Positions 2,141 to 59,900 of a stretch of 64,000 nt of DNA are shown here, in pieces. Under the pieces are notes generated by a model that was given only the letters and a program-made list of their open reading frames with translations, had not been told where the DNA came from and searched no databases. Each line of letters opens with the position of its first letter. Within the stretch, counting starts at the first letter, position 1. The DNA is from the human T2T-CHM13v2.0 reference genome, Homo sapiens: the NCBI RefSeq assembly GCF_009914755.1, contig NC_060947.1. One strand, written 5' to 3'. The translations under genes and the position numbers were made by a program.

Positions 2141-4131
2141 TTTAATTAAAGAGTTTGAATTAGTCCTCAAAAATGGAGTTAGGGGAGAGAAGATATAGGG
2201 CACATAAAAATGTGTTGACTTGAACAACATATTTTGGGGGGGGACAAGGGAGGGGTGACAGTTAAGTAGGAATCAAAGGAGAAGGGGAGGAAAATGAATT
2301 ATATCTAAGGATAAAGCTATTAAAGCTCTGTTTTTACAGAGAGGCACACAGCCAAGAAGGGGTCAAAAAACCTCCAGGCTAAGTTGCCCAAAGCTATGAA
2401 ACCTTCCATTTCTAGAAAAATAAATGAAGAATGAAGAAAATTATTTGAAATTTTTTCCAGTAATATTTGATTTCCTAAACATGAAAAAAATGTGGTCAAT
2501 GTTAGAGTATTCTTCAGTACTTAAGTCTTTTAGTATGTTTTTCAAATATGCGTTTATACCAACGGCATTTTATTCTTGATAAATAAAAGCATTAACAAGC
2601 CAAAAAAAGGTCCTTCCAAGACATGTACTCCAAAAGTCCCTCTTAAAGTGAATGTATGCCTTCCTTTTAAGGGAGCTGCAGCAAATGAGTCATCAATTCA
2701 CAAAGACACCAATGGATGCAATTTCCTGCTCTTGAGGGACTCATGATTATATGGAATGATCTATCCCACCCATCTTGGGGGGATAAAAAGGACTTTCGTT
2801 CACATATGACATGACCTGAACTTTACCAGCCCTGCAAGGTTCAGGAGAACAGCACACAGCATATATGAAATTATAGGTTTGGGTCTTTGATCATTGAGTC
2901 TCTAAAAAGTCAAATGTCTGTCATGCTAACAATTATGTAATTATCAGGTGAGTTGCTATATTACTCAGAATACTAAGGCTTAGATAAGGAACTGGAAGCT
3001 TTCACTATTAATTGTATTTTTCTGCCACTTACTCATAAATTCCTTAACTTATAAGCCTTCACAGTCTTCCCTTTTAAAACCTCCCTAGAGAGACATGTTC
3101 AAACATTTGTTGAATACTGATCTTGTATACCACAAGCTGTCATTGCTTCTGACAGGTAAACCTTCCAGGACATTCCTTTGCCAAAATTATCTAAGCAATT
3201 TTTCCTTCACTGTTACCTTTTGTTCATTATCATTGACATAATAAAATGATTTCAGAGCCCTCCAATGGGTGGTATGGATTCTTTGAAACATTGCTTCCTT
3301 GTATCAAATGTGTCTTCCTTAATGCCAAGGGGATACTATAATAAATAATTCAGCTACATTTGAGCTAGGCTATGTTCTGGGTCAGCCTTTTATCTGCGTA
3401 AAAGAATCATAATTCCATGAAAGCCTGCAGAAAATCTACCAAGAAATTTGACCATAGAAAAATCTTGCTCGAGAATATCCAAAGTTGCCAATTCCTGCAG
3501 CCAGAAAAGGTATTAGGTTCATCAGAATCTCATCAGACATGCAATATAGATATATTTCACTTACTATACAGAGCACTAGAATATGCAGCAAGAGAAAGAC
3601 AGAGAATGAAACGGCAAGGCCCATGGGCCATATTGGTTTATGACTGCCCTGCTCCTTACTCTTCACTCCTGCCAGAAGCTTCTATTCAATCCTCTTTGCC
3701 AGACTCTGGCCTGGCAAGCTTGAGCATTAGATCCTGGCTTCAAAAATAATAATCAAAGTAAAGCGCTGACAAATTAGATATTGGGTTATTTCTTGTTCTT
3801 GTTATTGCTCATACTTGATTGAATTCCACATCTGAGTCTTTGAATCTTTTACCCAGATACACTTGCTACTGCCTGTCCAACACACACTGAACACTGACCT
3901 TCAGTTCTCCTCCAAAGCTCTGATCTGTCCTATTCTCTCCATTTTTTACATTTTCCATTTCTCTGACACAAACAATAGTCCAGGTAGATACCTAGAAGTA
4001 TTGTGCTCTGACCTCAGGCCTAGACACTCTTGTACCCATCAAGCTGTCTCAGATTCCTTCTTCACTCTCTGTGCCTTCTGTCTATACTCTCATTTTGAAT
4101 GACCTCACAGTGTAGACATGTTTATTATCTT

Positions 4132-8146: not shown

Positions 8147-8265
8147 ACCATAGACCATAGCAACACAGACTGGTTAAAACCATCTCTCCGAGTTCAAAAG
8201 TTTAATTCATTTTAAAAGGCATCTGTCTAGCATCTAACAGAGGCTATAAAACACAAGTATTTTTA

Positions 8266-8370
8266 CAGCTGAAGCAACTAAACTAGTGTGTGTATAGTCA
8301 ACAGTACACAATGTATTTGAATACTGCCAATTTTTATGTGACCACTGAGCTGCCAGTGGCAGCAGTCTAC
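8266..8370 (+). repeat. Inverted repeat arm 1 (pairs with 10168-10272)
   Basis: 88/105 identical, ungapped, to the reverse complement of 10168-10272 (hand alignment). Confidence 0.93.
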
Positions 8371-10167: not shown

Positions 10168-10272
10168 GTAGACTGCTACCACTGGCAATTCAGCAGTCAC
10201 ATAAAAGTTGGCAGTATTAAAATACATTTTCTTCTGTGGGCTGTTCACATACTAGTTTAGTTTCTTCATCTG
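10168..10272 (-). repeat. Inverted repeat arm 2 (pairs with 8266-8370)
   Basis: gtagactgctaccactggcaattcagcagtcacataaaagttggcagtatt...actagtttagtttcttcatctg is the reverse complement of arm 1. Confidence 0.93.
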
Positions 10273-10714
10273 AAAAACAATGCAATTAGTCAAAATGAAA
10301 TTTGAAATTTTTACCTCCTCTAAAATCAGATGATTGACTCCACGTTTTATGTGAATATTCATAAACTGTTGCCAAAACTGATTATTATTTATGAAGAGAA
10401 AAGCTCCACAGTGGTGTTTAAAAAATTCCTGTTAGACTTGCATTGCTGAACCAGGCATCTTTAAATGATAGTTGCATAAACAGATAGGCAAATAAATAAA
10501 TAATTAGGCTAAAGTGGTTACCAAGAGAACTCTTAGCAGAACATAGCTTGCAAACCACACTGGACAAATTCCATTCCAAACTGTCCAGAATAAAAGGCAA
10601 AATATAAGCTATTTTGTAGTACTAGTATTTAAAGCCATAGATCAATTACCTATGTTAAGGCTACATGAAAACCTAATACATTAGAAAGAGATGCATTAAA
10701 TAATTTAGTGAAGT

Positions 10715-36834: not shown

Positions 36835-36938
36835 TATATATATATACATATATATATAAATATAAATATATATAAAAACAACAAAACAAAACAAAAAAAG
36901 AAAAAAAAACAAAAAACAAAAACAAAAAAAAAAAAAAA
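36835..36938 (+). repeat. (TA)n plus A-rich low-complexity tract in the 3'UTR
   Basis: Directly visible; ends in an A run of about 15. Confidence 0.9.
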
Positions 36939-37883
36939 TCAAGCCCTATATTTGATCACTTCCTGGAAAGGCATGAATGTGTTTGTGGCTGTTTTTGTTT
37001 AATCTTCTACTTCCTCTTTTCCCTCTATAATTTCTCTGCAAATGAGATTCTGTGCAAATGCCAGGCAAGTTAATTCAAAAGAGTGAATCAACGCAAGTCA
37101 AAATGAAATTTACACTGAAGGCTTCCAAACCAAAGGGAAGGACAGGATGTGTCATCAAATATGTTTTGTCACCTTGTATTATACAAAATGTTATTTTCTA
37201 AAGAGTCAGAGAAAATCTGTGAAACTTATTGTGCGGCCCCCTTGTAATTAAATGTTAACTCCCTTGTATTTAATTTTCAACACTACATTAAGAATTAAGT
37301 GGTTTCAGTTTGTGGACATAAGCAACACTTATTAATATCAAGGTGTTTAAGAACTCAGGAGGTCAAACATATGAATACCAACAGAGATCAGTATTTTCAA
37401 AATAAACATTATTTATACAAAATAGTTTTTAAATTAGATCAGAAAGTATTTAAAATAATTAATTTTACTGTATAAAGAATTTGCTTTATTTTAGCTATGT
37501 AATTCTATCTTTCAGAAAACAGAAAGCTGATGCTCCCAAGAAGTTCATCCCTTACCATTTAGCTTTATGTTTGAAATCAATGACATAAGCAGCTAATTCA
37601 TATTCATGTGAAGGTTGATGCAAAATCAATCACAAAGGAATCTGCAGAGGGCAGAGTTGTTAAAAGGAAATATTACCTATGTAGCTTTTAGTTTTTAAAA
37701 AAAATCAATGTGATAAAAACACTGATAATAGAACTTATACATTAATTTAGTGATTCATTGTAGGAACTCCCATCCCAGTCATCATCTGTGGGCCTGTGTA
37801 GTGACTATCGTACGTTTGGTTTATTCCTACCACCATTTAGTGAGAAAACAATTCTACACTTTTGGTCACAATAGTAAGGTGGC

Positions 37884-42300: not shown

Positions 42301-43400
42301 TGTTAAACTTTTCCTTCCCTCTTTTTATGTCTGTATAAACTTATAATTCTTAGGCCTAATTCCTATTGTGATGGTGAAGAAAGAGACTTAAGAATGCCCA
42401 GTTGGCTGGAAAAAAAGAAAAGAAAAGAAAAACCTTCTTTAAAAATCAAGCCCATTTACAATCCCTTTTTTTTCTTCACTACTGGATTAAGGAGAGGTTT
42501 GAATCAGTAACTCAGTAACTTAAAAGTCATTATCACATTAATGGTTTTCTCAAGGTTAAATTCCACATTTGTCCCTTTATTTTATAAAATTATTTGAGAA
42601 ACAGAAATGAAAGGAATGATAACATGTGAGTCCTTCTTTGCTGTTTCCTTTCCTTACTTCTTGCTCCCCAGGTATTTTATTCCTTTCTTTTTAAGGTACT
42701 ACTCACATAATGACCTTAAAATAAAGTCCCCTCAGGTAACATTTTAAAGTGACCAAGATCTTTAATCATCTTGTTTTTCTGCTCTGTTCGCATCTACTTG
42801 AAGTGCACAGTCAATCCTAAAGGGAAATGTTTTTGGCCTTACTTCTTAAGTTTAAGATAAATAACCTTATTATTTATTTGGGAGGAGGAGAATGGTGGTA
42901 AATCTTTCCATCATAAGCATAACAAGTGAACAACCATAAGCGTCTTAGAATGAATGAGCTGTTTAAGCAGAATGCATATCTTAAAGAAACAGCCTTTTAA
43001 GAAACACTTATCAAAGATGAAGCAGACATGAATCATTATGAAAATTTAAAGTAATAGTTACAAAAGGCCCCGTAAGGTTATTTTAGATTGGATTTCAAAG
43101 TAATTAGCATATTTAAACTTTCTTAAAGCCATTTCTACCTCAGTAGGATTTTTAAATGTGAGAAAATAAACTATTGAAAAAATAAAATGTTATAAGGATC
43201 ATAAATCAGTGTATAATTTGCATAGTACATTTTAAATTGTGAATCATATTATAGCATATGACCCATTATTCAAAATATCAGGAGAGACCTCTATAGTTGA
43301 AGAAAGTTTGGGATTGTTTGTGCACTTCAGACACACACATAAATTCTCAGGAATTTTAATTACATTCATACTATTGACAAGTGGTTAAAAGACTGATATG

Positions 43401-43858
43401 GGCTGGGCGCGGTGGCTTACGCATGTAATCCCAGCATTTTGGGAGACTGAGGCTGGCTGAGGCCAGGAACGTGGCCTCAAAGACTTTGAGACAAGAATGA
43501 GGTGGATGTATTTGAGGAAGAAAAGGAAGGCCATTGGCTGGGCGCGGTGGCTCACGCCTGTAATCCCAGCACTTTGGGAGGCCGAGGTGGGTGGATCATG
43601 AGGTCAGGAGTTCAAGGCCAGCCTGGCCAACATGGTGAAACCCCATCTCTACTAAAAATACAAAAATTAGCCGGGTGTGGTGGTGCACACCTGTAATCCC
43701 AGCTATTCAGGAGGCTGAGGCAGGAGAATCACTTGAACTATTAGGGAGGTGGAGGTTTCAGTGAGCTAGTATCATGCCACTGCACTCCAGCCTAGGTGAC
43801 AGAGCGAGACTCCTTCTCAAAAAAAAAAAAAAAAAAGAAAAAGAAAGAAAAAAAAGAT
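43401..43858 (+). mobile_element. Chimeric Alu: 5' Alu fragment (43401-43456) + 78-bp non-Alu segment (43458-43535) + full AluS (43536-43858)
   Basis: One TSD aaa(g)actgatat (43388-43399 / 43859-43868) brackets the whole unit; 43458-43818 matches 51601-51961. Confidence 0.93.
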
Positions 43859-44719
43859 AAACTGATATTAATGAGATATCTTCAGAAGATTCCTAATTAA
43901 TATCAGCTCTATATGGGCAAAATAGAAACAGAGAATGAGAAAAAAATAAGAAAATCATAATAGTGGTGACCCAATCACTTAATTGCTGTGGGATTTTCAG
44001 CATTTATATATGGCCTGTAAGAGTAATTAAAACAAATTCCTTAAGATTGCATTTTCTATCAAGGTTTAATGCCTGGTGTCACCATTCTAAGGCAATGTAG
44101 GTACTGCAGAACCCAGATGAGTATGTGGTGAAGGGTTTAGTAAGATTCTGAAGGATAGAGAACATCTCAATTTGACCAATAATTTAGCTAACTGTTGTTT
44201 GACTAAATTAGATACTTTTATCCTCAGTGATATGTCAGTTGGGTTTTGGTGGTACACAGAGGGAGATTATTATTTGAGTAGCTCTGTATTTGATTTAAAA
44301 ATCGCCAGTATTTTTAAAAAACTTTAGTACATTACATTAAACTCAAGACTTTATGGATACTCTTAATAGTTTTGCTTACACAGTAGAATAATATATATAC
44401 ACCGTTATTTAAATTAAGACATAGGTAAATAATATTCTAGGAAAGGTGACATATGGCAAAAGTCATCCAGACTGTGAATGACTGGTTTATGGAAAAATTG
44501 AGGCCAATTTTCTAACCTCTTGAATAAATAAACAAATAGACAAACAATTACTAATAAAAGGTAAAACGTCTCAAAAAACAGAAAAGAAAAGCACACAAAA
44601 GCCAGCATAAATGATAGCACTATAAGTTTATGAAAATCAATAGCTGGTTTAAATTAAGCAAAGAAATATCCTACTTCTATAGTTCTTGGCAATAAAGAAC
44701 AATATTGCTCTTTATAAAT

Positions 44720-44819
44720 TTAGTTAAGAAAGCTAAATCCAGCTTTGCCATGGAATATGTGACTTCTAAAAAGTAATTGTACTGCCACTTAGCAAAAAAA
44801 CAAAAATAAAAAATAAAAA
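44720..44819 (+). repeat. Dispersed direct copy of 45647-45737 ending in an A-rich tail
   Basis: ttagttaagaaagct...agctttgccatggaatatgtg...aaaaagtaattgta...ttagc + A-tract at both places. Confidence 0.92.
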
Positions 44820-45094
44820 GGAACAATATTGTTCTTGGCAATAAAGAACAATTATGAACTTGAAAAGAAAACTGGGCTCAGAACGCAAGTCATTTCTTAG
44901 GTGGTCTCAGGCTGAACTAAGATCCATTTCTCAGTATACTTTTCCTAAATGAAATAGAAATTGTATTACGAAATATTATAATGTATGGATAGAGATAATA
45001 ACTTTGGCATGCTTGATACTGTGACATAAAGATTTGGTGAGGGGTGAAATAGTTCATAGCATCCTTCCAAGGGATCTATTAACAAGAATTTGAA

Positions 45095-45430
45095 GTCCTA
45101 GATTCACTTAGAATCACCTGGGAAGGTTTAAAAAGTCCCGGAGTCCCAAATATTCAGACATAACCAAGCAGTCTTGTGTTTGTACCTAATGTGAGCATTT
45201 TTTAAGTAAGCTCTTCACATGATTCCACAGAACAACCAGAGTTGAAAACTATTCAATGATGCAGGTCTCCAATTTTAGGCACCAGAAGAAGTGCCTGGAA
45301 AGCTTGTTAAAAGTGCACATGCAGATTGAGCCTCAATGGGACTGAAGTGGGGCACAAAATATATTTACTTAACAAACTTTCTAGGTGATTCTAATGTGGA
45401 GGCCCACAGACCACTCTGAAAAACACAGGT
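45095..45430. mobile_element. Two adjacent MER5-type hAT MITEs
   Basis: ttagaatcacctgggaagg...ccagagttgaaaactatt; cctggaaagcttgttaaaa...aggtgattctaatgt...cagaccactctgaaaaacac. Confidence 0.7.
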
Positions 45431-48400
45431 GCAGGATTCGTTGTTTCTGTAATTAAAAATGCCGCCACTCTGTGGAATGCAAAATTGAAGATTCCAGCAG
45501 ACACATATCACCATAAACTAGGTCTTCCTTTTTAAATAATTCCTCCCAAATTGCTAATCAGAACTCATGATGAAGTCTTGATTTAAAAAACCTGAACTAT
45601 AGAAAATTACACTTTGAGAATTCCTCATGAAGAGGAAAATAAAAAATTAGTTAAGAAAGCTGAGTTCAGCTTTGCCATGGAATATGTGGCTTCAAAAAAA
45701 GTAATTGTATCATTTAGCAAAAAAAAAAAAAAAAAAAGTAATTAACAGTTAAGTGTTAAATAACAATACATCTCCCTTCTGAGAGAATACAAGTCTACTG
45801 TAGCTTCTATTTTTTAAAAATAGCAAAATTTGACAGGAATGCCAAAGACATTTGTTGTGAAAATAAATATACAAATATTAAATTAGTTAAATTAGTTGGA
45901 CTTAATTAACAATTATGTTTACTCAAGTTAACAACCAATTCATCAAAAGATTAACACCAATGAAGGGTTTTCAAATGTTGCTTAGCATAAGAATCACTTA
46001 CAGCATTTGTTAAAAGCTTGAATGAGTTCCTGGCTCACATTCCAAAACAATTGAACTCCAGGAAATTTTTACAATCATGTAATTTGGGGAGCATTATTCT
46101 AGTAAATGTCATAAACTACAAGGCTATCTTCTTACAGTGCCAATAAATGTAGTTAATTCTACATGAGATGATCATTTAAACGCATTATCTTGCATTTTTT
46201 CAGCAAAATGACAACCTACGCAACGATGACAAACCAGTTGGTTCTTTATTTTATCCTTCAATCGCTTACTCTGACAATACAGTTCCAGCCACGTATGTTT
46301 ATTTTACTGGGCTAATTTTGATCTCTAGACTCCTTGTTTTGCCTGAAATGACTACCAGAGTTGAGGTTGTTAGCTTATGTTTCTTAAGGAGAATGTATTA
46401 TTTGATGTAAGATTCTCATGAACCAATCATGTCACTGATTCTAAGTATTAATACATATTTCAAGGACATGATTGTTGTTAGTTGAAAGAAAAATATTCTT
46501 ATACATCCTTCACAGAGTAGCCACATCAAAGAGTTTCTGGAGAGTTGGCTTTAAGTTTCTAAAGATCCCACTCATAACCTAGTGACTTCCACAGTCACTG
46601 TAGGCCTTCTTACCATCTGGGCCTTTATAACACTAGAACATGCAAAAAATAATATTCAACAGTAAATTTTATTGGGTGAAGCATAGCCTTTGATATTTCT
46701 ACACTAAACTGAAAAATATACCAATTTAGCTTGATTTATTTTCAGAATGTATTCTGGACAACAACAGTTCAGAATCATCAACTGTGACAACGAGAAGCAT
46801 TTAGTGCGCTAAATTGGTATACATGTGTGCATACATGTGTAATGTGTATGTACTGTGAAATGAAAAATGCACATCATCAATATCTTTAAATAAGCCTAAT
46901 CAGTATATGTGCTACATTAAATAAATAGCTATGAGTTCCCAAGGCAATGCACTCCATCAGGAAATTACCCAGTGAATCCTTTTTGCATAGGCTAAAAATA
47001 AATACCCAGGTTTCTGTTCAACTAACTTTTCTTTAAGGACATGCATTTTATCTTAAAGAAAAGAGTCAGCTCATTCTTACTTCTCCCATAAAAATTCTAT
47101 GATTGTCTCTATTTTCTACTTTTTCCATTACATGGTAGCCCTGAATAATTTATTTATAAAGAATTGAGGAGGTATTGCACTCAGCAACTACCATAAGAAA
47201 AGCCTGTGAAAGCACCAAAGCTATTACCATGGATTTCCTATCTTTTGGACAATTTTATTTTTCCAGGGCTGTGAAATGACATTTTTTTTCAGATTCCATT
47301 TAAATTACATCCTCAGCAAATAACATGTCCTCAGCAAAGCCTAACTTTAGAAATACAGCTACTGATAAGATTTATTTTTAGTTTCCTCTTTACAGAATCT
47401 GTGCCATCACTGACGTGAAATAGAAACACAATAGAATTAAGTAAATGTACAACTGGTGATTTTGGAGTACTGCACCTTAAGTATTCTGCACCATGAGGTG
47501 ACCTTGTATTCATAGTCATCTTCAAAATGGGCATCTGAATGACTGTGTATCTTTATGAGAAAACTGGACATGGTTGAGAAATCACAGGAAGGAGATAGCA
47601 GAGATTTCTACTGGTGTAGTGCTGGAGAAGTGTAATTTTGTGTTGATAGCTCTAAAGATTTTAACTTCGGCTTATAGATAAGACTATATAGCTGACTGTA
47701 GCAAGTATAACATACTTAGCATTTGTACTTTCATGTTTAAGAGGGAAGGAGATCAGTCACTAAATATGAATGCTGCATATGTTAGCAATAGAGATAGTGA
47801 TTTTGTAACTTTAATTGCACTTGCCTTAAATCTTTTTCCAAAAAGAAATTATATATATAAACAAATAAGATGAGGATGGTTAAAGAACATTGTTTAGAAA
47901 TAGGCAAGTTCTGCGCTGATTATCCTTTTTTACATAATTTAATGCATAACGGCAGAGTATATTTGCCAGATCCATGTCAAGAGTATATGAGCACATAACA
48001 GCAGTTTGTATAAGCACAGGTGTTCTATGTTTAGATTAAAAATTAACCATGATAACTTTTGGTGTGACTGCTTTCAATTTCAAAAAGTTGGATGTTTAAA
48101 GATAAATTTATTACTTGCATAAGAATATTTTTGTATAATATTGGGAAAGGTTTAAAAGATGGACTTGCTTTATGGAGTGCAACTTTCAGAGAAAATAAAC
48201 AGGGTATGTGTCCAGTTTGTAAAATGTTTTCTTTCAAGATTACGCTTTCTCTGGTTAAATGCAAGGATGTGATGACTTGAAATACATTTTTGTGTGAATT
48301 GAACAATACCACCACCAATAACAAAAAATAAAGCAATGTGAATAAGTTGCGTATGCAAACTTCTTTTAATCAATGTTAGTAGATCCTGAAAACAAAAAAG

Positions 48401-51254: not shown

Positions 51255-51678
51255 TACTTCATTCACTCATTAATGCCAGGCCTTGTTCCAGGTGCTGGGA
51301 ACATATTGGAGAATCACATAGTCAATATTCCTGATCCATGGGGTCTTACTTTCTGGTAGAGTATGAGAAAAAAGGCAAGTCCCTTAATCAGTGAGAAAAT
51401 TTCAGACAGTGATACATGCAATGACAGTATAAAATAGGAAGATGTGATAGGAAATAACTACCTGGGGAAGTTAATTTTGCATAGTTATTACTGAAAGCTA
51501 CTTCCAAGAGGTGAAATTATGGCTGGACGTAGAATCAAGAGAAGCGGACAACCAGGGAAAGATCTGGCATTAATTGCCATTCCATCCAAAGAACTGATCT
51601 TGAGGCCAGGAATGTGGCCTTAAAGACTTTGAGTCAAGAATGAGGTGGATGTATTTCAGGAAGAAAAGGAAGGCCATT
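51255..51678 (-). mobile_element. L2 LINE fragment (host of the Alu at 51679)
   Basis: ttcattcactcattaatgccaggccttgttccaggtgctggga...ccatggggtcttactttctggt. Confidence 0.7.
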
Positions 51679-51972
51679 GGCTGGGCACGGTGGCTCACGC
51701 CTGTAATCCCAGCACTTTAGGAGGCTGAGGTGGTTGGATCATGAGGTCAGGAATTCGAGACCAGCCTGACCAACATGGTGAAACCCCGTCTCTACTAAAA
51801 ATATAAAAATTAGCCAGGCATGGTGGCACGCACCTGTAATCCCAGCTACTCAGGAGGGTGAGGCAGGAGAATCGCTTGAACTATTAGGGAGGCGGAGGTT
51901 GCAGTGAGCTGAGATCACGCCATTGCACTCCAGCCTGGGGGACAGAGTGAGACTCCATCTCAAAAAAAAGAA
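51679..51972 (+). mobile_element. AluS with private gaacTATTAggga variant
   Basis: Perfect 18-bp TSD aagaaaaggaaggccatt (51661-51678, 51973-51990). Confidence 0.97.
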
Positions 51973-52046
51973 AAGAAAAGGAAGGCCATTATTGTTGGGA
52001 CATTGTGAATACAGGCTTAAAATTTATATGTATATATAAACTGTAA

Positions 52047-56919: not shown

Positions 56920-59900
56920 CCTAAAATGGGCAAACGGTCTGAGGTGCCTGACGTCCGGGCATTCTTTTACACATTGGTCCCTCCCTAGTCTCTGTTCCCA
57001 GTGCAACTCGTCTCAAATCTTCCCTCTTTCCCTCCCGCTTGTCCCCTCAGTCCCAAACCCAAGCATCGCTGAGTCTTTCTAATCTTCCTTTTCTACAGAC
57101 CCATCTGACCTCTCCCCCTCCTCGCCAGGCTGAGCTAGGTCCCACTTCTTCCTCAGCCTCCGCTCCTCCACCCTATAATCCTTTTATCACCTCCCCTCCT
57201 CACATCTGGTCCAGCTTACAGTTTTGTTCCGTGACTAGCCCTCCCCCACCTGCCCAGCAATTTACTCTTAAAAAGGTGGCTGGAGCTAAAGGCATAGTCA
57301 AGGTTAATATTCCTTTGTCTTTATCCCAAATCAGATAGCGTTTAGGCTCTTTTTCAACAAATATAAAAACCCAGCCCAGTTCATGGCTCGTTTGGCAGCA
57401 ACCCTGAGATGCTTTACAGCCCTAGACCCTAAAAGGTCCAAAGGCCGTCTTATTCTCAATATACATTTTATTACCCAATCTGCTCCCAACATTAATCTCC
57501 AAAAATTAAATTCCGGCCCTCAAACCCCACAACAGGAGTTAATTAACGTCGCCTTCAAGGTGTACAATAATGTAGAGGCAGCCAAGTAGCAACATATTTC
57601 TGAGTTGCAATTCCTTGCCTCCACCGTGAGACAAACCCCAGCCATATCTCCAGCACACAAGAACTTCCAAATGCCTAAACCGCAGTGGCCAGGCGTTCTT
57701 CCACGCCTGCCTCCCCTAGGAGCTTGCTACAAGTGCCAGACTGGCCAACAGGCCAAGGAATGTCCACAGCCCGGGATTCCTCCTAAGCTGCGTCCCATCT
57801 GTGCGGGACCCCACTGAAAATCGGACTGTTCAACTCACCTGGCCGCCACTCCCAGAGCCCCTGGAACTCTGACCCAAGGCTCTCTGACTCCTTCCCAGAT
57901 CTTCTTGGCTTAGCGGCTGAAGACTGACGCTGCCCAATCGCCTCGGAAGCCCCGTAGACCATCACAGACGCCAAGCTTTAGGTAACTCTCACAGTGGAGT
58001 GTTTAAGTCCGTCCCCTTCTTAATCAATACGGAGGCTACCCACTCCACGTTACCTTCTTTTCAAGGGCCTGTTTCCCTTGCCTCCATAACTGTTGTGGGT
58101 ATTGACAGCCAGGCTTCTAAACCTCTTAAAACTCCCCAACCCTGGTGCTAACTTAGACAATACTCTTTTAAGCACTCCTTTTTAGTTATCCCCACCTGCC
58201 CAGTTCCCTTATTAGGCCGAGACATTCTTTTAAGCACTCTTTTTTAGTTATCCCCACCTGCCCAGTTCCCTTATTAGGCCAAGACATTTTAACTAAATTA
58301 TCTGCTTCCCTGACTATTCCTAGGCTACAGCTGCACCTCATTGCCGCCCTTCTTCCCAGTCCAAAGCCTCCTTCACATCCTCCTCTTGTATCCCCCCACC
58401 TTAACCCAAAAGTATAGGATACCTCTACTCCCTCCTTGGCGACGGATCATGCACCCCTTACCATCTCATTAAAACCTAATCACCCTTACCCCGCTCAATG
58501 CCAATATCCCATCCCACAGCACGCTTTAAAAGTATTAAAGCCTGTTATCACTCGCCTGTTACAGCATGGCCTTTTAAAGCCTATAAACTCTCCTTACAAT
58601 TCCCCCATTTTACCTGTCCTAGAACCAGACAAGCCTTACAGGTTAGTTCAGGATCTGCGCCTTATCAACCAAATTGCTTTCCCTATCCACCCCGTGGTGC
58701 CGAACCCATATACTCTCCTATCCTCAATACCTCCCTCCACAACCCATTATTCTGTTCTAGATCTCAAACGTGCTTTTTTTTTTTACTATTCCTTTGCACC
58801 CTTCACCCCAGCCTCTCTTCACTTTCACTTGGACTGACCCTGACACCCATCAGGCTCAGCAAATTACCTGGGCTGTACTGCCTCAAGGCTTCACAGACAG
58901 CCCCTATTACTTCAGTCAAGCCCAAATTTCTTCCTCATCTGTTACCTATCTCGGCGTAATTCTCATAAAAACACACGTGCTCTCCCTGCCAATCGTGTTC
59001 AGCTGATCTCTCAAACCCCAAGAACTACAAAACAACAACTCCTTTCCTTCCTAGGTTGGATACTTTCGACTTTAGATACCTGGTTTTGCCATCCTAACAA
59101 AACCATTATATAAACTCACAAAAAGAAACCTAGCTGACCCCATAGATCCTAAATCCTTTCCCCACTCCTCTTTCCATTCCTTGAAGACAGTTTTAGAGAC
59201 TGGCCCCACCCTAGCTCCCCCGACTCATCTCTTTTCATTACCCACAGCCGAAGTGCAGGGCTATGCAATCGGAATTCTTACACAAGAACCGGGACCGTGC
59301 CCTGTAGCCTTTTTATCCAAACAACTTGACCTTACTGTTTTGCCCAGCCCTCGAGTCTGCGTGCAGCAGCCGCGGCTGCCGCCCTAATACTTTTAGAGGC
59401 CCTTAAAATCACAAACTATGCTCAACTCACTCTCTACAGTTCTCATAACTTCCAAAATCTATTTTCTTCCTCACACCTGACACATACACTTTCTGCTCCC
59501 CGGCTCCTTCAGCTGTACTCACTCTTTGTTGAGTCTCCCACAATTACCATCGTTCCTGGCCCGGACTTCAATCTGGCCTCCCACATTATTCCTGATACCA
59601 CACCTGACCCCCATGACTCTATCTCTCTGATCCACCTGACATTCACCCCATTTCCCCATATTTCCTTCTTTCCTGTTCCTCACCCTGATCACACTTGGTT
59701 TATTGATGGCAGTTCCACCAGGCCTAATGGCCACACACCAGCAAAGGCAGGCTATGCTATAGTACAAGCCACTAGCCCACCTCTTAGAACCTCTCATTTC
59801 CTTTCCATTGTGGAAATCTATCCTCAAGGAAATAACTTCTCAGTGTTCCATCTGCTATTCTACTACTCCTCAGGGATTATTCAGGCCCCCTTCCTTCCCT

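What the first reader, a model, noticed from the sequence alone, without database searches (positions are those of the whole stretch)
43388..45743. Two independent local copy-paste insertions with the same geometry just past the gene end: possible cis RNA-templated insertion
Seen: both events (43458-43858 from 51601-51972; 44720-44819 from 45647-45737) copy non-Alu local sequence from downstream into an upstream site. Both keep the IL1RAPL1 sense orientation, end at a genomic A-tract of the donor, and are bracketed by short duplications. They lie 1.3 kb apart, just after the predicted distal poly(A) site. Established: L1 ORF2p TPRT primes on A-rich RNA and leaves TSDs. Inference: nascent read-through RNA still tethered to the locus was internally primed and reverse-transcribed into nearby DNA. 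A DNA-level alternative (SDSA or polymerase-theta templated insertion, where A-tracts also supply homology) is not excluded, and n=2.
Basis: partly seen in the sequence, partly recalled or inferred. Interest (0 to 1): 0.72.

Follow-up and report, generated by a model that had tools for sequence, protein, structure and literature searches.

The report
Local copy-paste insertions near IL1RAPL1
Two short stretches just downstream of the IL1RAPL1 gene are real copies of nearby sequence pasted 1-8 kb upstream, and they look more like scars of break repair that copied neighbouring DNA than like a new RNA-based mechanism.

Summary
Both duplications are real, and each exists only as this local pair in the whole T2T genome. 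The description of event 1 needs correcting. It is 78 bp of unique flank plus a complete Alu, copied from 51601-51963. It sits inside another Alu, whose first 57 bp (43400-43456) lie between the left flanking repeat and the copied flank. That fragment and the last ~75 bp of the Alu are more diverged than the donor-derived middle (p=0.007-0.04). No other Alu in the genome carries the fragment's private changes. The flanking repeats, the TT|AAAA site and the long A tail therefore most likely belong to an older recipient Alu, not to the copy event.

Event 2 (44713-44818, from 45640-45737) does end at a donor A19 tract and is bracketed by a 16/18 repeat. That repeat lies in a 25-bp tandem repeat, so a reconstruction without a duplication is also possible.

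A scan of 314 kb found three more unique local duplications without these hallmarks, one of them inverted. IL1RAPL1 lies in fragile site FRAXC.

My best reading is DNA-templated local repair or template switching (about 0.5). A locally templated L1-type reaction remains possible for event 2. Interest is modest.

The parts
43387..43399 (+). Left flanking repeat of the E1 block (AAAAGACTGATAT), preceded by GGTT. Probably the 5' target-site duplication of an older recipient Alu.
   Evidence: It abuts Alu position 1 of the fragment, not the copied segment.
43400..43456 (+). 57-bp 5' fragment of a recipient Alu ('Alu-A').
   Evidence: Aligns to Alu positions 1-57. It has 5 non-CpG differences from the local consensus in 57 bp. 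No other Alu in the genome lies within 2 mismatches of its 43-mer.
43458..43535 (+). Copy of the unique 5' flank of the donor Alu, including the donor Alu's 5' target-site duplication.
   Evidence: 74/78 identical to 51601-51678. Only these two copies exist in the genome.
43536..43743 (+). Alu body proven to derive from the donor, up to the shared private TATTA indel.
   Evidence: Own non-CpG changes: 2 in 209 sites.
43744..43818 (+). Last ~75 bp of the Alu. Its origin is uncertain; it probably remains from the recipient Alu.
   Evidence: 5 own non-CpG changes in 75 sites, against 2 in 209 upstream (Fisher p=0.015; p=0.044 if an adjacent pair counts as one event). It shares only two CpG transitions and one reversion at a decayed consensus site with the donor.
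43819..43851 (+). A-rich tail (A18 G A5 G A3 G A4).
43852..43868 (+). Right flanking repeat (AAAAGATAAACTGATAT).
   Evidence: The 8/8 core is shared with the left repeat, and a 4-nt indel separates the rest.
51601..51678 (+). Donor flank. Its last 18 nt (51661-51678) are the donor Alu's 5' target-site duplication.
51679..51972 (+). Donor Alu body (to 51961) and short tail (A8GAA).
51973..51990 (+). Donor Alu 3' target-site duplication (18/18 with 51661-51678). It is absent from the copy.
44683..44712 (+). Left side of the E2 target: 25-bp unit 44683-44707, overlapping the left flanking repeat 44695-44712 (AAGAACAATATTGCTCTT).
44713..44818 (+). E2 inserted copy, with a 26-nt interrupted A tail (the A run spans 44794-44819).
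44819..44856 (+). Right flanking repeat 44819-44836 (16/18 with the left one), overlapping the second 25-bp unit 44832-44856 (23/25 with the first).
45640..45737 (+). E2 donor segment, ending in a pure A19 tract (45719-45737) and starting in an A-rich stretch.

Best explanation
Both events are local templated insertions. While a chromosome break or a stalled replication fork was being repaired, a DNA end copied a stretch of nearby DNA on the same chromosome and was then rejoined.

Event 1 happened inside a pre-existing, older Alu at 43400. An end within that Alu paired with the like-oriented Alu 8 kb downstream. It copied leftwards through about 210-280 bp of that Alu and ran 78 bp out into its unique 5' flank. 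It was then joined without homology to the other broken end at Alu position 57. The product is a mosaic: old Alu 1-57, donor flank, donor Alu, then the old Alu's 3' end, tail and target-site duplication.

Event 2 is a roughly 106-bp patch copied from 0.9 kb downstream into a 25-bp tandem repeat. The A-rich tracts at both donor boundaries served as switch points. Its break may have been a staggered (L1-endonuclease-like) cut, which would give the 18-bp duplication.

Shown: the copies, their direction, the mosaic pattern, and the structures at the junctions. Inferred: the repair pathway and the DNA nature of the template.
For: - Locality is built into this model. Each element exists only as the local pair genome-wide.
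- The E1 flanking repeats bracket an Alu 5' end, not the copied flank.
- The Alu fragment (5 non-CpG changes in 57 sites) and the last 75 bp (5 in 75) are more diverged than the donor-derived middle (3 in 209). Fisher p=0.007, or 0.013 if an adjacent pair counts once. The donor lineage itself is homogeneous, 6/209 against 2/75, p=1.0.
- No Alu in the genome carries the fragment's private changes. There are 102 hits at <=3 mismatches; only the fragment itself has 0, and none has 1-2.
- In the surrounding 314 kb, 16 low-copy local pairs were found. After setting aside 5 tandem pairs, 2 pairs of old low-identity repeats, 1 MIR-like pair, 2 repeat-derived pairs and 1 LTR-like pair, E1, E2 and three further dispersed duplications remain. 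These are D1 and D2 (direct, each a unique pair) and D6 (inverted, carrying an Alu tail plus that Alu's 3' target-site duplication plus flank). None of the three has a flanking duplication.
- Literature. Alu gene conversion is reported to act within about 10 kb (PMC8230782, introduction passage). Homologous repair that ends outside homology is finished by microhomology end joining or template switching (PMC5104497, abstract). [quoted passage not shown]
Against: - E2 has all three L1-type marks: a 16/18 repeat abutting both ends, found nowhere else at that spacing in the window; a pyrimidine-rich nick site; and an A-tract end.
- All three A-ended donors (E1 apparent, E2, D6) have A rather than T on the + strand.
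- The E1 mosaic rests on small counts (p=0.007-0.04).
- The left junction of E1 shows no usable microhomology.
- A 10/13 match between the left flanking repeat and the 13 nt just upstream of the donor segment (about 3e-4 per position) is not used by this model.
- No outgroup sequence was available, so no empty site was seen.
Confidence: 0.5

Rival explanations
1. An L1 ORF2p nick was primed on an A tract of a nascent or chromatin-tethered read-through transcript from the same locus, and this was reverse-transcribed into nearby DNA (target-primed reverse transcription in cis).
For: - E2 has an 18-nt flanking repeat (16/18), unique at that spacing in the window.
- Its site, AATA|AAGAAC, is endonuclease-like, and the copy ends at a genomic A19 tract.
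- A donor only 0.9 kb away cannot be explained by ordinary retrotransposition in trans.
- The annotated gene end (36899) lies in a genomic A-rich tract, so transcripts may run further than annotated.
- Screens for templated insertions required distant donors, so local events would have been missed (PMC5110952, text read).
- Retrocopy insertion is reported as not fully random with respect to nuclear contacts (PMC10733166, abstract).
Against: - For E1 the duplication, the TT|AAAA site and the tail fit an older recipient Alu.
- The E2 repeat lies in a 25-bp tandem repeat, which allows a three-unit reconstruction without any duplication.
- There is no positive sign of RNA: no splicing, and no AATAAA or ATTAAA signal before the A19 tract (read).
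- The donors lie 8.7 and 14.7 kb beyond the annotated gene end.
- Neighbouring local duplications lack the hallmarks.
- n=1 after E1 is removed.
Confidence: 0.2
2. A hybrid model for E2. An L1 endonuclease staggered cut supplied a T-rich 3' end. This end annealed to the nearby A19 tract in exposed single-stranded DNA (for example at a replication fork) and was extended on DNA, not RNA.
For: - It explains the flanking duplication, the nick site, the A-tract end and the locality together.
[quoted passage not shown] The authors cite biochemical work showing that ORF2p can extend DNA ends on a DNA template (PMC11702581, passages read).
Against: - It carries the same doubt about whether the 18-nt repeat is a true duplication.
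- In that paper the local pieces accompanied retrotransposed sequence, whereas E2 has none.
- Sequence alone cannot separate this model from the RNA version.
Confidence: 0.15
3. Ordinary retrotransposition in trans that landed near its source by chance. For E1 this would be a chimeric retrocopy in which the reverse transcriptase switched from the flank-plus-Alu RNA to the 5' end of another Alu RNA.
For: - The E1 block as a whole is bounded by repeats, has a TT|AAAA site and has a long A tail.
- Alu-containing chimeric insertions formed by template switching are catalogued (PMC13174262, section read).
Against: - By my estimate, the chance of landing within 10 kb of the source is about 1e-5 per event, and two events are needed.
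- In that catalogue most Alu parts are full length, not 57 nt.
- The fragment is much more diverged than the rest, and no source Alu with its changes exists.
Confidence: 0.03
4. Not local copies at all: two members of a dispersed repeat family, or an assembly artefact.
For: The genome search is insensitive to old repeats. It missed an 84% MIR-like partner.
Against: - The E1 copy shares the exact Alu insertion point, the donor's 5' duplication and a private indel with the donor.
- The E2 core 22-mer has no 1-mismatch hit genome-wide and a single 2-mismatch hit, which does not extend beyond the seed.
- The copies are 9-14% diverged, unlike an assembly duplication.
Confidence: 0.02

Closest known systems
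Partial Alu-Alu ectopic gene conversion between neighbouring Alus (PMC8230782)
   Same: A like-oriented Alu lies 8 kb away. An internal tract of the recipient is replaced by donor sequence, giving a hybrid element. The reported range of action is about 10 kb.
   Different: Here the tract runs out of the Alu and brings in 78 bp of the donor's unique flank. The recipient's first 57 bp are kept as a separate upstream fragment.
Non-canonical termination of homologous repair / long-tract gene conversion (PMC5104497)
   Same: Copying starts by homology, ends where the second end has no homology, and is closed by end joining. Complex breakpoints result.
   Different: That work is a reporter assay between sister chromatids. 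Here the event is an ancient germline one between dispersed repeats, and the junction shows at most 1 nt of microhomology.
Templated sequence insertion polymorphisms, class 1 (L1-type) and class 2 (break patch) (PMC5110952)
   Same: The insert sizes are similar: 73-414 bp in the experimental set. E2 looks like class 1 (duplication, L1-like site, A end). D6 and E1 look like class 2.
   Different: Published cases come from distant loci, and class 1 cases carry untemplated poly(A) after a cryptic signal. Here the donors are 0.9-8 kb away and the A tracts are genomic.
Templated insertions linked to microhomology-mediated break-induced replication (PMC8421209)
   Same: A nearby template is copied by a polymerase that switches template, and such events occur as germline variants.
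   Different: As defined there, those insertions are short, inverted and templated within 100 bp. These are 106-360 bp, direct, and 0.9-8 kb away.
L1-associated complex insertions with locally templated genomic DNA (PMC11702581)
   Same: ORF2p-made breaks can pick up sequence templated from DNA near the integration site.
   Different: Those insertions also contain retrotransposed RNA-derived sequence. E2 contains only the local copy.

Membership tests
L1 ORF2p target-primed insertion (retrocopy / class 1 templated insertion) | A target-site duplication of about 7-20 bp directly abutting both ends of the inserted segment. | tested here: inconclusive
   E2: a 16/18 repeat abuts both ends and is unique at that spacing. 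It lies in a 25-bp tandem repeat, so a three-unit site with no duplication is also possible. E1: the repeats abut an Alu 5' fragment and an A tail, not the copied flank.
L1 ORF2p target-primed insertion (retrocopy / class 1 templated insertion) | An endonuclease site resembling TT|AAAA at the start of the duplication. | tested here: inconclusive
   E1: GGTT|AAAAGA is a perfect site, but it is probably that of the older Alu. E2: AATA|AAGAAC is a partial match in 66% A+T sequence.
L1 ORF2p target-primed insertion (retrocopy / class 1 templated insertion) | A 3' A-rich tail at the junction. | tested here: met
   E1 tail 43819-43851; E2 A run 44794-44819. The donor A tracts are genomic (A8GAA and A19).
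L1 ORF2p target-primed insertion (retrocopy / class 1 templated insertion) | Evidence of an RNA intermediate, such as splicing or untemplated poly(A) after a polyadenylation signal. | tested here: not met
There is no AATAAA or ATTAAA in the 30 nt before the E2 donor A19 tract (read). The tails correspond to genomic A tracts. This lowers membership, not the possibility of internal priming.
Alu-Alu ectopic gene conversion / synthesis-dependent repair with end joining (E1) | A homologous recipient element existed at the site before the event. | tested here: inconclusive
   An Alu 5' fragment sits at the left repeat, and a tail plus repeat sit at the right. The fragment is more diverged than the donor tract (5/57 against 3/209, p=0.013), and no source Alu exists for it. 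No outgroup was available.
Alu-Alu ectopic gene conversion / synthesis-dependent repair with end joining (E1) | A homologous donor nearby in the same orientation. | tested here: met
   The donor Alu is at 51679-51961 on the + strand, 8.1 kb downstream.
Alu-Alu ectopic gene conversion / synthesis-dependent repair with end joining (E1) | A mosaic: donor-specific markers confined to an internal tract, with recipient sequence at the ends. | tested here: inconclusive
   Donor markers (the flank and the TATTA indel) reach 43743. Beyond that point, own non-CpG changes rise from 2/209 to 5/75 (p=0.015, or 0.044). The counts are small.
Replicative template switching (FoSTeS / microhomology-mediated break-induced replication) (E2) | Microhomology at both junctions. 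| tested here: inconclusive
   At the 3' junction an A tract meets A-rich target sequence. At the 5' junction the overlap is at most 1 nt. With 8.5% substitutions since the event, fine mapping is blurred.

The most novel reading that the evidence does not exclude
Event 2, and perhaps D6, may record an L1-endonuclease-initiated, target-primed synthesis. Its template would come from the immediate chromosomal neighbourhood: either nascent read-through RNA or exposed single-stranded DNA about 1 kb away. That would be a local 'retro-duplication' route that retrocopy and templated-insertion screens cannot see, because they require distant donors. The near-constant 0.93-1.02 kb spacing of four direct local duplications in 314 kb could be its length scale.
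Probability: 0.2. Interest if true: 0.7.

Novelty: new member of a known kind. Interest (0 to 1): 0.3.

Why it matters
If these are ordinary repair scars, they are useful worked examples. They show how a pre-existing Alu or a tandem repeat at the target can imitate the target-site duplication, endonuclease site and poly(A) tail of retrotransposition. Scans for 'cis retro-insertions' must rule that out first.

They also suggest that dispersed local duplications of 50-400 bp are common here: five in 314 kb of a fragile-site region.

If event 2 is instead a locally templated L1-type reaction, it would point to an unrecognised source of small duplications near transcribed or replicating DNA.

Tried and rejected
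- **Repeat-family origin of E2.** Rejected by a whole-genome 22-mer search and by flank comparison.
- **Reverse direction for E2 (45.6 kb as the copy).** Rejected. There is no flanking repeat there, and the 44.7 kb copy interrupts the tandem repeat.
- **Copies as a long target-site duplication around an inserted element.** Rejected. The DNA between the E1 copies is mostly unmasked according to the annotation note, and no poly(A) or poly(T) abuts the inner ends in D1.
- **Ancient tandem duplication of a ~0.9-kb unit.** Rejected. There is no similarity outside the 105 bp.
- **Pair 8260-8370 / 10277-10168 as a third event.** Set aside. It looks like the MIR core (recalled, not tested), and the genome search is insensitive to it.
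- **Pair at L037:9327-9632 / L038:1365-1668.** It has weak hits on two other chromosomes, so it was dropped as a probable LTR pair.
- **Alu subfamily assignment of the fragment and the 3' end.** This rested only on recalled consensus features, gave mixed signals, and was not used.
- **A mis-aimed query.** One genome query used the wrong coordinates and gave nothing usable.
- **Literature.** No paper describing L1-type insertion templated by local nascent RNA came up in the full-text searches. That is a limited search, not proof of absence.

Full report
**What is there**

BLAST of the window against itself confirms both pairs. 43458-43837 matches 51601-51980 at 90.8% over 381 bp. 44713-44816 matches 45640-45741 at 85.7% over 105 bp. 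Both pairs are in direct orientation.

The window is chrX:29,512,001-29,576,000 of a 3.1-Gb assembly that can be searched. The unique 5' part of event 1 (E1) finds only itself and its copy in the whole genome, 2 of 2 matches at 95%. The event 2 (E2) donor finds itself, its copy, and a 30-nt A run.

That search misses old repeats. It failed to find an 84% partner of a MIR-like element. I therefore also searched a 22-mer that is identical in both E2 copies. It has 48 hits at <=3 mismatches, against 2 for the reversed control. Only the two local copies have 0 mismatches, one hit has 2, and the rest have 3. None of the 6 other loci fetched extends beyond 37 bp. Both events are therefore genuine local duplications of otherwise unique sequence.

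**Anatomy of E1**

In fact only 78 bp (43458-43535, which is 51601-51678 at 74/78) is unique. The remainder (43536-43818) is a complete Alu. It gives SRP-like Rfam hits and aligns with 44 other Alus.

The donor Alu (51679-51961) has its own perfect 18-nt target-site duplication, 51661-51678 = 51973-51990. The copy contains the 5' one but not the 3' one, so the 51.6-kb locus is the source. The copy and donor Alus also share a private TATTA indel (43739-43743) that is absent from the consensus of the 44 other Alus.

The copied flank does not abut the left 'bracketing duplication'. Between them lies a 57-bp fragment that is the exact 5' end of another Alu (43400-43456). The order is:
- GGTT | AAAAGACTGATAT (43387-43399)
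- Alu positions 1-57
- one C
- donor flank
- Alu
- A-rich tail (43819-43851)
- AAAAGATAAACTGATAT (43852-43868)

**Is the outer Alu older?**

I built a majority consensus from the 44 other full-length Alus found in 314 kb. Partial Alus were dropped by requiring query coverage 12-275. I then counted differences that are not CpG transitions.

| Segment | Non-CpG changes | Sites |
|---|---|---|
| Copy's Alu up to TATTA (own changes) | 2 | 209 |
| Copy's Alu after TATTA (own changes) | 5 | 75 |
| Donor's Alu up to TATTA (own changes) | 6 | 209 |
| Donor's Alu after TATTA (own changes) | 2 | 75 |
| 57-bp fragment | 5 | 57 |

For the copy, before against after TATTA gives Fisher p=0.015, or 0.044 if two adjacent changes count as one event. 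The donor is homogeneous (p=1.0). Fragment plus 3' end (10 in 132) against the middle (3 in 209, counting the shared TATTA indel as one event) gives p=0.007, or 0.013.

After the TATTA marker, the copy shares only two CpG transitions and one reversion at a decayed consensus site with the donor.

A 43-mer of the fragment has 102 genome hits at <=3 mismatches. Only the fragment itself has 0, none has 1 or 2, and the listed 3-mismatch hits (all but two were shown) are scattered over other loci. No surviving Alu could therefore have supplied the fragment with its private changes, so those changes are best read as accumulated in place.

Together this favours a mosaic. An older recipient Alu contributed the fragment, the last ~75 bp, the tail and both flanking repeats. 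Its middle was replaced by the donor flank plus donor Alu. On that reading the TT|AAAA site, the duplication and the poly(A) belong to the old Alu's own insertion and say nothing about how the copy was made. The counts are small, so I put this at about 0.75.

**Anatomy of E2**

The 106-bp insert (44713-44818) ends in an interrupted A run of 26 nt (44794-44819). The donor (45640-45737) ends in a pure A19 tract and begins in an A-rich stretch.

The insert is abutted by AAGAACAATATTGCTCTT (44695-44712) and AGGAACAATATTGTTCTT (44819-44836), which match at 16/18. A repeat this good at this spacing occurs at 2 of 64,000 window positions, both of them E2 itself. The site reads AATA|AAGAAC.

These are the three classical L1 marks. 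However, the target also holds two copies of a 25-bp unit (44683-44707 and 44832-44856, 23/25), whose 21-nt core occurs exactly twice in the window. Two reconstructions give whole numbers of units:
- two units with a true 18-bp duplication;
- three units with no duplication, the insert replacing a few bases of the middle unit and joining through A-rich microhomology.

I cannot separate these without an outgroup. I lean 55:45 to a true duplication.

There is no AATAAA or ATTAAA in the 30 nt upstream of the donor A19 tract (read).

**Ages**

- E1, copy against donor: 11 non-CpG differences in 287 sites (3.8%). That is 8 in 209 in the Alu and 3 in 78 in the flank; the fourth flank difference is a CpG transition.
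- E2: 6 substitutions in 71 aligned non-tail sites (8.5%), plus 3 indels.
- The two do not differ significantly (p=0.12), so a single complex event is not excluded.
- With a recalled neutral rate of about 0.5-1e-9 per site per year, both events are tens of millions of years old. This is an inference.

**Context scan**

I fetched 250 kb flanking the window. I ran a self-BLAST of the resulting 314 kb.

The filter was: pairs <=15 kb apart, >=45 bp long, with >=35 bp not hit elsewhere in the 314 kb. This gave 16 pairs:
- 5 tandem pairs;
- 2 pairs of old repeats at 70-73% identity;
- 1 MIR-like pair;
- 2 repeat-derived pairs in one cluster (D3, D4);
- 1 LTR-like pair, which has weak hits on other chromosomes;
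- E1 and E2;
- three more dispersed duplications (D1, D2, D6).

D1 (115 bp, 94%, direct) and D2 (39-47 bp, direct) are unique pairs genome-wide. They show no flanking duplication, and D1's homology probably continues past an A tract.

D6 is inverted and 8.9 kb from its source. It carries the last 30 bp of an Alu, that Alu's tail, its 3' target-site duplication and 85 bp of flank, and it ends at an A5 tract. It has a CCAG overlap at one junction, no flanking duplication, and sits beside an (AT)n stretch.

Local copy-paste without retro hallmarks is thus common here: 5 events in 314 kb. With that density, finding two events within a few kb of each other is unremarkable.

**Mechanism**

Retrotransposition in trans cannot explain donors 0.9 and 8 kb away. 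By my estimate the chance is about 1e-5 per event. A local mechanism is therefore required.

For E1 the best fit is homology-initiated repair between two like-oriented Alus. The copying overshoots into the donor's flank and is ended by non-homologous joining. Three sources bear on this:
- Alu gene conversion is reported to act within about 10 kb (PMC8230782, introduction passage seen).
- Non-canonical termination of homologous repair by microhomology end joining and template switching is documented (PMC5104497, abstract seen).
- IL1RAPL1 lies in the fragile site FRAXC (PMC8683627, passages seen).

For E2, three routes remain open:
- template switching at A-rich tracts;
- an L1 endonuclease cut whose T-rich end was extended on a nearby DNA A tract;

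[quoted passage not shown] Published templated-insertion screens required distant donors and so could not have seen local events (PMC5110952, parts 1-2 of the text read). Alu-containing chimeras formed by template switching are mostly full-length Alus (PMC13174262, one section read), unlike the 57-nt fragment here.

**Unexplained**

- The 13 nt just upstream of the donor segment (51588-51600) match the left flanking repeat at 10/13. Only 22 other of 63,988 window positions do as well. Yet the Alu fragment lies between that repeat and the copied flank, so no simple model uses this match.
- The start-to-start spacings of the four direct pairs E2, D1, D2 and D4 are 927, 1021, 987 and 933 bp.
- A runs of 5 or more outnumber T runs 24 to 5 in 43-46 kb, whereas the rest of the window is balanced.

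**Verdict**

The RNA-in-cis idea gains no support from E1 and stays open for E2. Overall this is a new instance of known kinds of repair scar, and its interest is modest.

Noticed in passing
L016:6351-6464 and L016:7372-7484 (chrX 29,318,351 / 29,319,372; inside IL1RAPL1): D1 is a unique local direct duplication, 94% over 115 bp and 1.0 kb apart. It has no flanking duplication, and its homology probably continues past an A tract with a ~20-bp indel.
   Followed up: partly
L028:2415-2460 and L028:3402-3447: D2 is a 39-47-bp direct local duplication 0.99 kb apart. It is a unique pair genome-wide.
   Followed up: partly
L038:7871-8001 and L039:6726-6849 (55-64 kb past the gene end): D6 is an inverted local copy 8.9 kb from its source. 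It carries an Alu 3' end, the tail, that Alu's 3' target-site duplication and 85 bp of flank. It has no flanking duplication and a CCAG overlap at one junction, and it lies next to a palindrome and an (AT)n tract.
   Followed up: partly
L031:2547-2766, 2850-2909, 3552-3698: This is a cluster of one inverted (60 bp) and one direct (148 bp, 90.5%) local duplication of partly repeat-derived sequence. It may be a complex local rearrangement.
   Followed up: no
E2, D1, D2, D4 (window and loci above): The start-to-start spacing of four direct local duplications falls in 927-1021 bp, although pairs up to 15 kb apart were allowed.
   Followed up: no
window 36875-36939: The annotated IL1RAPL1 transcript end (36899) lies inside a ~65-nt genomic A-rich tract. 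The annotated end could be an oligo-dT internal-priming artefact, and the real 3' end may lie further downstream.
   Followed up: no
window 51588-51600 vs 43387-43399: There is a 10/13 match between the sequence just 5' of the E1 donor segment and the left flanking repeat at the target (about 3e-4 per position).
   Followed up: partly
window 43000-46000: There are 24 runs of A5+ against 5 runs of T5+ on the + strand. The rest of the window is balanced at about 3.5-3.9 per kb each.
   Followed up: no
window 8260-8370 and 10168-10277 (inverted): This 84% pair over 111 bp resembles the MIR core (recalled, not tested). The whole-genome search returned only the query itself, which shows its insensitivity to old repeats.
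   Followed up: partly
window 58164-58288: A tandem duplication of a 63-bp unit at 96.8% identity.
   Followed up: no
L037:9327-9632 and L038:1365-1668: These are 306-bp direct repeats at 95% identity, 2.0 kb apart, with weak hits on two other chromosomes. They are probably the two LTRs of an old element. The left copy is followed by a 13-nt repeat of its own end.
   Followed up: partly
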